Part shown: in pieces, positions 395 through 21,296 of the stretch
How the letters are laid out: the number at the start of each line of letters is the position of its first letter
Position numbering within the stretch: position 1 is the stretch's first letter
From: Eledone cirrhosa
Taxonomy: Eukaryota
NCBI GenBank assembly: GCA_964016885.1
Contig: OZ024757.1
Span: 9,362,001 to 9,426,000, forward strand
DNA length: 64,000 nucleotides
Direction of reading: 5' to 3'
Notes under the pieces: model-generated
The model's input: the letters and a program-made list of their open reading frames with translations, nothing else
What the model was told of the DNA's origin: nothing
Databases searched by the model: none
Program-made: the position numbers and the translations under genes

Positions 395-460
395 GTTCGT
401 TGGAGACAGTGTCTATTGTTATGCCTGGCTGAGAGACAAGCTTCTCTACAGGTGAAATAA
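395..460 (-). CDS. Putative repeated exon B (66 nt, phase 1-1), (I)ISPVE[K/N]LVSQPGITIDTVSNE; further copies at 1825-1890, 3292-3357, 4799-4864, 6225-6290, 7678-7743, 9170-9235, 10621-10686, 12121-12186
   Basis: Minus strand reads ttttcttccatatttcttccag|TT ATT TCA CCT ... AAC GAA C|gtaagt: polypyrimidine tract plus CAG acceptor, GTAAGT donor, length divisible by 3, no stop. Confidence 0.7.
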
Positions 461-1082
461 CTGGAAGAAATATGGAAGAAAATAATAGGAATGCAAGAAG
501 CTTTTCTTGGGAAGAGTTTGTTATCAATTTGAAGAAATGGTAGAATAAGACGTTGTATTTTGAATTACCTAGACCCATTTAGTTATATATGGGCTGTCTG
601 GAATTATGAGACAAATATGGTAGTTTCGATATGTGCATAAAGAACAAATATATATGATGGGATAACCAAATATGTAGAGCAATAGCTGATCTAGTCATAC
701 GAGGATAAGGAGTATGAACAACGAAGGAAGACCTGAAATAGTGAAGAAGTGTCGGAGGAAATTTTGTTAAAGATGAGAACTCTGATCTGTGAGATTATTC
801 CATCTACCTCAAAGTATCTTGTGCAACATTCATCTTCTCTTTTTAACCAGAAATGTCATTCTTTCATAGATAACTCTGATAATAGCCTGAAAAAGTGTAT
901 CTTTACTTTTGACCTCATTGTAATGTCTCTAAGGATCAAGGTCAATAAAATATTTATCCTTGATTATGTTAGGGAGATTGTAATATAATATTCTTGACTG
1001 AAATAAGTGGTTATAAATTTACTGATCAAAACATAAATAAGTTTCTGAATAATTAATAGTTAATTTTAAATTAATAACTTAC

Positions 1083-1142
1083 TCTTTTCGGCAAGTTTGG
1101 TCTTGAGTGTTGCACTTCGAGAAGACAAATATGAAGCGTCAG
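1083..1142 (-). CDS. Putative repeated exon A (60 nt, phase 1-1), (P)[19 protein letters not shown]; further copies at 2513-2572, 3982-4041, 5489-5548, 6913-6972, 8368-8427, 9858-9917, 11309-11368
   Basis: Minus strand reads ttttgtttatgttttctag|CT GAC GCT TCA ... GAA AAG A|gtaagtta: canonical sites, length divisible by 3, open in the same phase as exon B. Confidence 0.65.
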
Positions 1143-4100
1143 CTAGAAAACATAAACAAAATAATAGTAAAACTGTATGTATATATATACAAATTTATAT
1201 TACAAATACAGAAAACAGTTATTAGATTCATTATCTCTGATATACTGATAAATACACCAGGTCCGAACACAAAAAGAAACAAGTTACCATGTCCTTACCA
1301 AATATATATATATACATATATATATATATATATATATATATATATATATATATATATATATATACATATATATAGGAACACGGCGTCTTAGCTTCTTCGT
1401 AAATATACATTTACTACTGAATTTTCTCTAATCTTGATAACAGTCGTTATAACTAAAATGTATTCTTACATACACTCGCATATCGTGTGTGTACACAGAA
1501 TCTCACAGTCACACACGCACACACATGGTTCACACACTCAAAAAGCCACCAAACCAACGGAGAAACACACACAAACTGTTACTCGTTAATGTTATATACA
1601 ACCCAATATACATATATGTACAGATCAACATACGCAAAACACTAGCATGACTTCACTTATATATATATATACACACTATTTTATTCATCAGTTCCAGCAT
1701 ACACAATATGTAGACTTTCATGTTTACAAATATATGATGTAATCTCGATTTGACATTAATGTTGAAACACGTGTCATAGTTCTCTGTACAGACTAATAGA
1801 AAGTGTGTTTGAAATAAAACTTACGTTCGTTGGAGACAGTGTCTATTGTTATGCCTGGCTGAGAGACAAGGTTCTCTACAGGTGAAATAACTGGAAGAAA
1901 TATGGAAGAAAATAATTTAAATGCAAGAAGCTTTTCTTGGGAAGAGTTTGTTATCAATTTGAAGAAATGGTAGAATAAGGCGTTGTATTTTGAGTTACCT
2001 AGACCCATTTAGTTATATATGGGCTGTCTGGAATTATGAGACAAATATGGTAGTTTCGATATGTGCATAAAGAACAAATATATATGATGGGATAACCAAA
2101 TATGTAGAGCAATATCTGATCTAGTCATACGAGGATAAGGAGTATGAACAACGAAGGAAGACCTGAAATAGTGAAGAAGTGTCGGAGGAAATTTTGTTAA
2201 AGATGAGAACTCTGATCTGTGAGATTATTCCATCTACCTCAAAGTATCTTGTGCAACATTCATCTTCTCTTTTTAACCAGAAATGTCATTCTTTCATAGA
2301 TAACTCTGATAATAGCCTGAAAAAGTGTATCTTTACTTTTGACCTCATTGTAATGTCTCTAAGGATCAAGGTCAATAAAATGTTTATCCTTGATTATGTT
2401 AGGGAGATTGTAATATAATATTCTTGACTGAAATAAGTGGTTATAAATTTACTGATTAAAACATAAATAAGTTTCTGAATAATTAATAGTTAATTTTAAA
2501 TTAATAACTTACTCTTTTCGGCAAGTTTGGTCTTGAGTGTTGCACTTCGAGAAGACAAATATGAAGCGTCAGCTAGAAAACATAAACAAAATAATAGTAA
2601 AACTGTATGTATATATATACAAATTTATATTACAAATACAGAAAACAGTTATTAGATTCATTATCTCTGATATACTGATAAATACACCAGGTCCGAACAC
2701 AAAAAGAAACAAGTTACCTTGTCCTTACCAAATATATATATATACATATATATATATATATATATATATATATATATATATATATATATATATATATATA
2801 TATATATATATATATATATATATATATATATATACATATATATAGGAACATGGCGTCTTAGCTTCGTAAATATACATTTACTACTGAATTTTCTCTAATC
2901 TTGATAACAGTCGTTATAACTAAAATGTATTCTTACATACACACGCATACCGTGTGTGTACACAGAATCTCACAGTCACACACGCACACACATGGTTCAC
3001 ACACTCAAAAAGCCACCAAACCAACGGAGAAACACACACAAACTGTTACTCGTTAATGTTATATACAACCCAATATACATATATGTACAGATCAACATAC
3101 GCAAAACACTAGCATGACTTCACTTATATATATATATACACACTATTTTATTCATCAGTTCCAGCATACACAATATGTAGACTTTCATGCTTATAAATAT
3201 ATAATGTAATCTCGATTTGACATTAATCTTGAAACACGTGTCATAGTTCTCTGTACAGACTAATAGAAAGTGTGTTTGAAATAAAACTTACGTTCGTTGG
3301 AGACAGTGTCTATTGTTATGCCTGGCTGAGAGACAAGGTTCTCTACAGGTGAAATAACTGGAAGAAATATGGAAGAAAATAATAGGAATGCAAGAAGCTT
3401 TTCTTGGGAAGAGTTTGTTATCAATTTGAAGAAATGGTAGAATAAGACGTTGTATTTTGAGTTACCTAGACCCATTTAGTTATATATGGGCTGTCTAGAA
3501 TTATGAGACAAATATGGTAGTTTCGATATGTGCATAAAGAACAAATATATATTTGATGGGATAACCAAATATGTAGAGCAATAGCTGATCTAGTCATACG
3601 AGGATAAGGAGTATGAACAACGAAGGAAGACCTGAAATAGTGAAGAAGTGTCGGAGGAAATTTTGTTAAAGATGAGAACTCTGATCTGTGAGATTATTCC
3701 ATCTACCTCAAAGTATCTTGTGCAACATTCATCTTCTCTTTTTAACCAGAAATGTCATTCTTTCATAGATAACTCTGATAATAGCCTGAAAAAGTGTATC
3801 TTTACTTTTGACCTCATTGTAATGTCTCTAAGGATCAAGGTCAATAAAATATTTATCCTTGATTATGTTAGGGAGATTGTAATATAATATTCTTGACTGA
3901 AATAAGTGGTTATAAATTTACTGATCAAAACATAAATAAGTTTCTGAATAATTAATAGTTAATTTTAAATTAATAACTTACTCTTTTCGGCAAGTTTGGT
4001 CTTGAGTGTTGCACTTCGAGAAGACAAATATGAAGCGTCAGCTAGAAAACATAAACAAAATAATAGTAAAACTGTATGTATATATATACAAATTTATATT

Positions 4101-19990: not shown

Positions 19991-20851
19991 CTATACATGG
20001 GACAAGTTCCATATATATATATATATTAATAAAAACGATGAAGATTCGTGGCATGTATTTAGTTTTTGTATTGTGTATCAACCTGCTACGCGCGTTTCGT
20101 AGCGGATTGGCTCAGGTTAACCCATAGAAGTTATGGATCCGACTCCATTATCGATCTGCTCTTCTTACTGGCGATCCGACAAAAAATATCGTATATATAT
20201 ATATGTGTGTTGAAAGAGGGAGAAAAAGTAAAGGAGAGATTATATTATTTATTCAAGTGTGAGCCACATAAGCACTGATATAGAGTTACTGTCCTTGAGT
20301 TCAAACTTCATCCCCTTCTTTTTTCACTATGTGGGACGTTTCCCTCACCACATCACATTGAATGATGTTATTTAAAGAGTGACAATTTTGCTGTTTTTTA
20401 GGCATAACTGGAACTGGTTGGTCTTAACCACGGTGATACTTAGTGTCGCGGAGGTGTAACTCCTTTTATCATTCAACGAGGGAAAATGATTCCATGTTTT
20501 GTGACATACTCCAGCACTAAAATTGTCACTTCAGCCAATGATCAAAATACAGCCACTCACAAGGCAGAAGAGGAACAGAAAATGGATAAATTAACAAGAT
20601 TTTTTTTTACAATCTCTTCGCGCTTCTGCGACTAGCATTTCCCTCCGTTGAGAGGAAGGGTATCATGCCTGAGAAATAAGTCCGGAGAGATACATTGGCT
20701 TATACAGCTAATATTGCTAGTCTTCTGTTCTGTGGGGCGGCGTAAAACAGACAAGTTGTTTAGAAGTTGTGTACTTATATTTTGGAGAAATAAAATTATA
20801 TCCTAGTGTGTTATTTACAATTTAACAAACTGGGTTTATTATAACGTACTT

Positions 20852-21055
20852 TAAGGGCGGTGGATTGGCAGTATTGGTAGAGTGTCGGACAGCATGCTTT
20901 GTGGCATATAGTTACAGCATTTTACGTTCTGAGTTCAAAACTTACCTAGATTAGCTTTGCCAGTAACATGTACGGGGTCAATAACATAAACTACTAGTAA
21001 TACACTAGGGTAGATTTAATCGTCTTTCCCTTCAAATTGCTGGCTTTGTGTAGAA
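20852..21055 (+). mobile_element. Diverged tRNA-derived SINE
   Basis: ggcggtggattggcagtattggtagagtgtcgga...ttctgagttcaaa...aattgctggctttgtg; this is the reverse complement of the 15.2 kb and 47 kb copies. Confidence 0.7.
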
Positions 21056-21070
21056 AGAATTATAACTTAC

Positions 21071-21296
21071 CAGGCTGCATATCGATTGTGTGCGATTCAT
21101 TAACATTCGCTGTGGCTGTTGGAAACTCCACAGTCTGAGGTGCAGGATCGATAGGTGTTATATTATATTGTTCCTGCTTCTTTTGTCGTGGTCGGCGACG
21201 TTTTTCACGATAGCACGGGCAGACGGACTCAGCAAGCCGTCGGGCCCTTTCAGCACATCTTCGGAGAAAGCCGCGGCGCTTTTTTGGCTCCGACAT
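21071..21296 (-). CDS. Putative first coding exon of the repeat-protein gene (MSEPKKRRGFLRRCAERARRLAESVCPCYREKRRR...HTIDMQP); product unknown
   Basis: ATG at 21296, then 75 codons plus 1 nt, ending in G|gtaagtta (phase 1, matching exons A and B). It is a GC-richer, non-repetitive ORF in an AT-rich setting. Confidence 0.6.

What the first reader, a model, noticed from the sequence alone, without database searches (positions are those of the whole stretch)
395..21296. The 1.45 kb tandem array hides a spliced gene expanded by intron-exon cassette duplication
Seen: every unit has, on the minus strand, a 60-nt and a 66-nt segment bounded by polypyrimidine-AG and GTAAGT, both phase 1-1. Spliced together they give the 42-aa repeat [42 protein letters not shown]. 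Five diverged copies (13519, 14334, 15034, 15963, 16927) keep exact exon length, splice dinucleotides and an open frame, while surrounding sequence has indels, deletions and SINEs. An ATG exon at 21296-21071 also ends in phase 1. Inference: an unrecognised protein with a basic, Cys-containing N-terminus and a variable-number Ser/Thr/Pro-rich repeat. Repeat masking would hide it, and symmetric exons allow any combination to be skipped in frame.
Basis: partly seen in the sequence, partly recalled or inferred. Interest (0 to 1): 0.8.

Follow-up and report, generated by a model that had tools for sequence, protein, structure and literature searches.

The report
Orphan gene family with expanding exons
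The repeat array is the middle of one of 17 copies of a likely gene with no relative found, each copy carrying its own run of duplicated short exons that would lengthen a repetitive protein without breaking its reading frame; this copy carries a premature stop, and no RNA was available to show splicing.

Summary
All 23 cassettes in the window (60 or 66 nt, AG/GT, phase 1-1) and the ATG exon sit where stated.

The array continues out of the window to three more symmetric exons and a last exon, about 51.5 kb in all. Exon 1 has 17 copies in this genome (15 open), each with a 170-nt upstream block found nowhere else and, downstream, a last exon; cassette arrays were seen in 12 loci read. Of 353 cassette copies, 323 are intact. 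Indels (3 in 126 nt against 32 in 190) and stops (3 against 19 expected) are depleted, while amino acids change freely (dN/dS 1.1-1.2). The TGA is private to this copy among 7 near-identical ones.

No homologue and no RNA run were found, so splicing and function are inferred. It is built like NBPF/Olduvai and DAZ but belongs to neither. The scan noted other exon arrays in this genome on other DNA, none of this family.

The parts
21071..21296 (-). Exon 1 (ATG to phase-1 donor), 75 aa: basic, helical, Cys-containing first half and low-confidence second half
   Evidence: 17 copies in genome, 15 without stop
21385..21554 (-). 170-nt upstream block, likely promoter or 5' UTR
   Evidence: 17 of 17 genome matches lie beside an exon-1 copy, 95-100% identical
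21872..21897 (.). Two CRE-type palindromes (TGACGTCA; name recalled), 583 and 601 nt upstream of the ATG
   Evidence: present in 15 of 16 loci examined, doubled in 7 of 7 near-identical copies, absent from the frameshifted copy
17502..17563 (-). Decayed A-like cassette (AG kept, stop, degraded donor)
   Evidence: same state in 7 of 7 near-identical copies
16927..16992 (-). B-type exon, diverged, 66 nt, phase 1-1
15963..16028 (-). B-type exon, diverged, GTAAAT donor
15034..15093 (-). A-type exon, diverged, 60 nt
14334..14399 (-). B-type exon, GTAAAT donor here; no GT at this donor in the six sister copies
13519..13584 (-). B-type exon, diverged
12809..12868 (-). A-type exon with in-frame TGA at 12845-12843, splice sites intact
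   Evidence: equivalent exon open in the six sister copies
395..12186 (-). Homogenised array of about 1.47-kb units: B exons 12121-12186, 10621-10686, 9170-9235, 7678-7743, 6225-6290, 4799-4864, 3292-3357, 1825-1890, 395-460; A exons 11309-11368, 9858-9917, 8368-8427, 6913-6972, 5489-5548, 3982-4041, 2513-2572, 1083-1142
1..394 (-). Intron leading out of the window. The gene continues for about 30 kb (G000:C18:9361605 down to 9331779): 9 more A and 10 more B cassettes, three 63-nt phase-1 exons (one with a GC donor) and a last exon with AATAAA

Best explanation
The array is the middle of one of 17 copies of a likely protein-coding gene, whose short same-phase exons were copied in tandem with their introns and would be spliced mostly end to end into a long Ser/Thr-rich repeat behind a basic, Cys-containing helix that probably anchors the protein. 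Shown: the cassettes, the 17 loci, the frame constraint and the free amino-acid change. Inferred: unequal crossing-over and conversion between units change the exon count and homogenise each array; because every cassette is phase 1-1, gains and losses leave the frame intact; selection removes frameshifts and stops but not residue changes, so length and composition of the repeat matter more than its sequence. The protein would be an intracellular tether or spacer of about 500-1,700 aa, held by the N-terminal helix on a membrane (basic face plus acylated Cys) or in the nucleus (basic clusters), with many phosphorylatable Ser/Thr. Germ-line expression is a guess from analogy. The copy in this window is probably damaged: 191 aa with the TGA exon, about 1,003 aa if it is skipped.
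For: Gene anatomy repeated at 17 loci: exon 1, upstream block at exactly those 17 places, a last exon downstream in matching orientation. In 12 aligned last exons the acceptor is invariant, the stop after Met is TAA in 7 and TAG in 2 (read through in the 3 near-identical copies), and AATAAA is kept in 11. 323 of 353 cassette copies have AG, GT, length 3n and an open frame. Indel signatures 3 in 126 exon nt against 32 in 190 flank nt, p 4e-5; frameshifting 1 against 29, p 5e-6. Nonsense changes 3 against 19.3 expected; against the other two sense frames p 0.005. Length changes fixed in several copies are in frame (54-nt A variants; 6-nt deletion in exon 1). First half of exon 1: 8 synonymous against 2 non-synonymous differences to the 93% clade, Fisher p 3e-4. 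AlphaFold2 on 7 sequences: helices 3-25 and 27-45, pLDDT 88 at residues 11-20; hydrophobic moment 0.59-0.66, net charge +13 to +14 in residues 1-40, no hydrophobic 19-mer above 0.97.
Against: No transcript seen. dN/dS of the repeat exons is 1.1-1.2, not different from 1. The stop null is imperfect: the other two sense frames are also depleted (30 against 45.6), and the frame was chosen because it is open. Flanks are AT-rich and indel-prone, which favours the indel test. Parsimony counts on a tree ignore gene conversion. 30 of 353 copies are broken, including 14 B copies without GT; 2 of 17 exon-1 copies have stops; two distant-clade genes carry a stop or frameshift late in the array. Exon 1 differs more between clades (14-16%) than intron 1 does (6-7%), and its second half has pN above pS, so conversion may have shaped the upstream-block conservation. 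A simple FoldIndex is positive (0.14) for this clade's repeat and near 0 for the distant clade, so disorder is not clearly predicted. The anchor and tissue are untested.
Confidence: 0.72

Rival explanations
1. The family is real and coding, but the window's copy is a pseudogene or yields only a decay-targeted transcript (a sub-case of the best explanation).
For: In-frame TGA in a cassette with intact splice sites, absent from the six sister copies; shortest array of the three near-identical copies read in full (42 cassettes against 76 and 83); two 4.5-kb insertions in the array.
Against: Exon 1, upstream block, CRE pair and last exon are intact; the exon is symmetric and could be skipped; the TGA could be an assembly error or a single allele. 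Whether reads hold it is open.
Confidence: 0.4
2. A once-coding family now decaying, whose arrays keep expanding neutrally as macrosatellites; the open frames are leftovers.
For: dN/dS about 1; exons are the least conserved bins of the unit across clades (0.61-0.64 against mostly 0.67-0.89); broken cassettes and two broken paralogues.
Against: About 430 inferred exonic substitutions produced only 3 stops and one frameshift; TAA/TAG exchange at one stop position; conserved upstream block and CRE.
Confidence: 0.13
3. A combinatorial splicing system in which cassettes are skipped in many patterns to make a diverse protein population.
For: All internal exons are phase 1-1; exons diverge faster than introns between clades; weak donors (GTAAAT, GTATGT, GC) at some cassettes; distant-clade arrays hold many different A variants.
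Against: In this clade most units are identical, so skipping would change only length; most donors are the strong GTAAGT; the B substitution excess (210 against 163.5) is not matched in A (224 against 290.5) after base-class correction; phase symmetry is a by-product of tandem copying.
Confidence: 0.15
4. A non-coding satellite or a non-coding host transcript with chance splice-like motifs, amplified for an intronic RNA.
For: AT-rich DNA gives many donor-like words (97 in 22 kb); no homologue found.
Against: Frame-specific stop and indel depletion; ATG exon and last exon at the ends of each array; no Rfam family reaches its gathering score in 10,500-22,000, and the 27 weak hits lie in simple repeats; no intron bin stands out as conserved apart from the AT-repeat zone.
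Confidence: 0.05

Closest known systems
NBPF / Olduvai (DUF1220) genes, a human core-duplicon family (PMC9313022, PMC6920530, bioRxiv 10.1101/2021.07.06.450945; passages read)
   Same: Dispersed and tandem paralogues mostly on one or two chromosomes; repeat domain encoded by an exon doublet; variable tandem copy number per gene; sub-types in a fixed order with an expanded homogeneous middle; unit size about 1.5-1.6 kb (1.6 kb from search listing).
   Different: No sequence relationship (no Pfam hit for exon 1; the repeats were too short to submit). Each exon here is symmetric on its own, so A-only runs occur; the repeat is 42 aa, not about 65.
DAZ exon-7 arrays in ampliconic Y genes (PMC13252187; passages read)
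   Same: Near-identical gene copies, each with an array of small repeated exons that varies in number and sub-type and is interrupted by a LINE-type insertion.
   Different: No RRM or other known domain; two alternating exon types; testis expression and sex linkage untested. The 72-nt exon and 2.4-kb unit of DAZ are recalled, not from a call.
Schistosome micro-exon genes, MEGs (PMC5825161; passages read)
   Same: Most of the coding region is short symmetric exons; fast protein change; orphan sequence.
   Different: Exons are 51-66 nt, not 6-36; no hydrophobic leader; alternative splicing not shown.
Cephalopod taxonomically restricted gene arrays (PMC9068888; passages read)
   Same: Clustered, lineage-restricted families; the paper notes further arrays with no similarity to known proteins.
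   Different: No resemblance noted to reflectins, suckerins or beak proteins (not aligned); its Supplementary Table 4 was not opened, so overlap with unnamed squid arrays is unchecked.

Membership tests
NBPF / Olduvai | Olduvai (DUF1220) domain sequence | tested here: inconclusive
   Exon 1 has no Pfam hit at E 1; the 19-21-aa repeat exons were not scanned. No likeness seen by eye; host is not a mammal.
NBPF / Olduvai | Repeat encoded by a tandemly expanded exon doublet, copy number varying among paralogues | tested here: met
   19A+23B, 35A+41B, 38A+45B, 35A+8B, 21A+6B in five genes read in full
DAZ / DAZL | N-terminal RRM | tested here: not met
   Exon 1 is 75 aa, two predicted helices, no Pfam hit; no other large exon found between ATG and last exon
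DAZ / DAZL | Sex-linked, testis-expressed | not testable with these tools
   No RNA holder listed; contigs unnamed
Schistosome MEG | Symmetric exons of 6-36 nt | tested here: not met
   Exons are 51-66 nt
Schistosome MEG | Signal peptide or membrane anchor | tested here: not met
   Highest 19-residue Kyte-Doolittle mean 0.72-0.97 over five predicted proteins; no SignalP run
Schistosome MEG | Variant generation by exon skipping | not testable with these tools
   No RNA
Protamine-like / sperm nuclear basic proteins (recalled) | Strongly basic along the whole chain | tested here: not met
   Repeat region K+R 11-15%, D+E 11-12%; only residues 1-40 are strongly basic
snoRNA or miRNA host arrays (recalled) | A conserved structured RNA in each repeated intron | tested here: not met
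   No Rfam hit at gathering score in 10,500-22,000; only described families are covered

The most novel reading that the evidence does not exclude
An undescribed, probably octopod-restricted family of 17 amplified genes in which one ancestral phase-1 cassette gave rise to every internal exon, and in which diversifying selection plus cassette skipping produce a length- and sequence-variable tail on a fixed membrane or chromatin anchor: a germ-line or recognition system that evolved the NBPF/DAZ design independently and is invisible to annotation because it is masked as satellite.
Probability: 0.15. Interest if true: 0.8.

Novelty: new variant of a known kind. Interest (0 to 1): 0.52.

Why it matters
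If transcribed, this is a whole orphan gene family hidden inside what looks like macrosatellite: 17 loci spanning about 50-225 kb each, with no match in five protein searches. It gives an invertebrate parallel to NBPF and DAZ in which frame is conserved and residues are not, and three clades of different age in one genome make the turnover of exon arrays measurable. Its interest is tempered because the design is known from vertebrates and flatworms, the scan has noted several other exon arrays in this genome, and function is unknown.

Tried and rejected
RNA: no RNA holder listed. The three listed runs are contigs of one sample and behave as DNA; they cover the gene, and none of the 15 joints shown (798 not shown) matches a predicted splice junction. 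This is not evidence on expression. Whether reads carry the TGA allele remains open.

Homologues: none by Pfam, phmmer/hmmsearch on longer and similar-length proteins or the ESM Atlas. The profile search of 1.84 billion representatives gave 2 hits, both repeat-summed artefacts: a Vibrio VCBS/cadherin-repeat protein and an unnamed fish repeat protein. Only exon 1 was long enough to search; the repeat was never searched.

Gene continuing past the last exon into a known domain: the shared downstream blocks examined (4 of 5 shared with the distant clade) show no coding pattern; one is an inverted copy of the 3' end, and the long ORFs downstream are satellites, mobile-element-like or C2H2 genes. 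Only about 30-50 kb downstream of 7 loci was read.

Upstream (CCA)n tract as a coding exon: open in this copy but broken in the distant clade and without a fitting start; rejected.

Positive selection on repeats: dN/dS not above 1 significantly; base-class-corrected rates disagree between A and B; not claimed.

Copy number from contig depth: no single-copy calibrator; not used.

Literature: seven searches listed no paper on this family; the library lacks most subscription papers and supplements were not searched.
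Full report
Observation. The first 13 kb of the window is a tandem array with A-to-A spacing of 1424-1507 nt. On the minus strand each unit has a 60-nt (A) and a 66-nt (B) segment between a polypyrimidine-YAG and GTAAGT, both phase 1-1. The five diverged copies and the 226-nt ATG exon are as described. Corrections: an in-frame TGA at 12845-12843 in the A copy 12809-12868; GTAAAT donors at 14334 and 15963; a decayed A-like cassette at about 17502-17563. 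A plain scan finds 23 cassettes on the minus strand of 1-22,000 and none in the other 106 kb of strand scanned.

The whole gene. The window is G000:C18:9362001-9426000. Reading 80 kb beyond its left end shows the array continuing, 19 A and 23 B cassettes in all, one B without GT. Then come an 82-nt satellite, three 63-nt phase-1 exons (one with a GC donor) and a last exon at 9331779 with a stop and an AATAAA 206 nt after the acceptor. All internal exon types share a donor flank of about 17 nt, and the last exon's acceptor flank resembles that of A, which suggests one ancestral cassette (inference).

The family. Exon 1 has 17 matches in the genome: 7 at 99-100%, 3 at 93%, 7 at 83-85%; 15 have no stop. 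A 170-nt block upstream of the ATG matches exactly these 17 places at 95-100% and nothing else. A TGACGTCA palindrome lies 447-636 nt upstream in 15 of 16 loci examined, doubled in the 7 near-identical copies and missing only from the frameshifted copy. The last exon has 18 substantial matches: 17 lie downstream of an exon 1 in the same orientation, and one has no exon 1 found. In 12 aligned last exons the acceptor is invariant; the codon after Met is TAA in 7, TAG in 2, and a sense codon in the 3 near-identical copies, which read on for 20 more residues. I read 5 genes in full and parts of 12 more loci; C159 and C1507 were not read. Arrays differ by clade: strict AB alternation here, A-rich higher-order units in the older clades.

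Constraint. A profile search of 19 regions from 13 loci gave 381 hits; I dropped 28 scoring under 60 bits and kept 353 regardless of integrity. Of these 323 have AG, GT, length 3n and an open frame; 10 lack AG, 16 lack GT, 4 have a stop (one also lacks GT) and 1 is frameshifted. Distinct indel signatures: 3 in 126 exon nt against 32 in 190 flank nt (p 4e-5); frameshifting 1 against 29 (p 5e-6). Nonsense changes on the tree: 3 against 15.2 or 19.3 expected. The other two sense frames are also somewhat depleted (30 against 45.6), so the fair figure is p 0.005; antisense frames show 58 against 56. Amino acids are not conserved: dN/dS is 1.1-1.2, and the exons are the least similar 40-nt bins of the unit between clades. 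After base-class correction B exons show an excess of substitutions and A exons a deficit, so positive selection is not claimed. The first half of exon 1 shows purifying selection (8 synonymous, 2 non-synonymous against the 93% clade, p 3e-4; dN/dS 0.42 among 10 intact copies), but its synonymous divergence (0.27-0.32) far exceeds intron 1 (0.04-0.07) and the second half has pN above pS, so conversion or mosaic history is likely.

This copy. The TGA is absent from the equivalent exon in all six sister copies. With all spliceable exons joined this copy stops at 191 aa; skipping that exon gives 1,003 aa. Two sisters give 1,631 and 1,733 aa with no skip; two distant-clade genes give 869-883 and 495-525 aa. 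The window's copy may be a pseudogene; the family-level case does not depend on it.

The protein. Residues 1-40 carry a net charge of +13 to +14 and an amphipathic 18-mer (moment 0.59-0.66). AlphaFold2 predicts helices 3-25 and 27-45, with mean pLDDT 64.6 and 88 at residues 11-20. Two cysteines are invariant in the 7 aligned intact copies. The repeat is 25-26% Ser+Thr, 6-9% Pro, near neutral in charge, with no Trp and no hydrophobic segment; FoldIndex is equivocal. No homologue was found for exon 1 (the two hits are artefacts). No Rfam family reaches threshold.

How it likely works. Shown: architecture, paralogy, frame constraint. Inferred: transcription from the conserved upstream region; mostly constitutive splicing through strong donors; growth and homogenisation of arrays by unequal exchange, made harmless by phase symmetry; dead cassettes dropped by loss of AG or GT; a protein acting as an anchored, variable-length, phosphorylatable spacer. 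Membrane against nuclear anchoring, and germ-line expression, are guesses from sequence features and from analogy with core-duplicon and DAZ genes.

Comparison. The design matches NBPF/Olduvai exon doublets (PMC9313022, PMC6920530, bioRxiv 2021.07.06.450945; passages) and DAZ exon-7 arrays (PMC13252187; passages), and more loosely schistosome MEGs (PMC5825161; passages). It fails the RRM test for DAZ and the exon-size and signal-peptide tests for MEG, and shows no sequence link to NBPF. PMC9068888 (passages) mentions unnamed cephalopod gene arrays in a supplement that I did not open. Seven literature searches listed nothing on this family. Earlier scan notes describe other symmetric-exon arrays in this genome and call the host octopus-like; I did not test those, and four look-ups by sequence or place found nothing on this family.

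Verdict. A real feature, very probably a coding gene family, new in sequence and known in design; expression, splicing pattern and function are open. Interest 0.52.

Noticed in passing
G000:C18:9360857-9356355 and 9351170-9346618 (L009, L010): Two copies of a roughly 3.8-kb insertion inside the array, each with the same 821-codon open frame; looks like a retroelement duplicated along with a block of units (family not tested).
   Followed up: partly
G000:C18:9339800-9336430 (L011): About 3.3 kb of an 82-nt-like satellite between the last B exon and the first 63-nt exon.
   Followed up: no
G000:C18:9327700-9327350 (L012): Inverted copy of the 3' end of the last exon about 4 kb downstream, shared with the distant clade.
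   Followed up: partly
G000:C18:9322550-9298170 (L012-L015): 24-kb array of a 20-nt satellite downstream of the gene, present at the same relative place in all three clades; C2H2 zinc-finger frames follow on the opposite strand in the near-identical copies.
   Followed up: no
window 21962-22735: (TGG)n tract giving a 425-codon open frame on the minus strand; a similar tract lies upstream in 8 of 9 loci checked but is broken in the distant clade.
   Followed up: yes
window 22000-64000: Mosaic of internally repeated blocks with reverse-transcriptase fragments (RVT_1 in 3 of 5 frames scanned); much of it is 92-98% identical to the region upstream of the sister copy at C18:8.87 Mb, so the duplicated segment extends well beyond the gene.
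   Followed up: partly
G000:C18 5.2, 7.07, 7.73, 8.28, 8.87, 9.38 Mb and C28 126.7 Mb: Seven 99%-identical copies, six of them within 4.2 Mb in mixed orientation, as in ampliconic regions; some could be assembly duplicates or haplotypes.
   Followed up: partly
G000:C28:44234176-44234535: A last exon and A cassette with no exon-1 match found in the genome searches.
   Followed up: no
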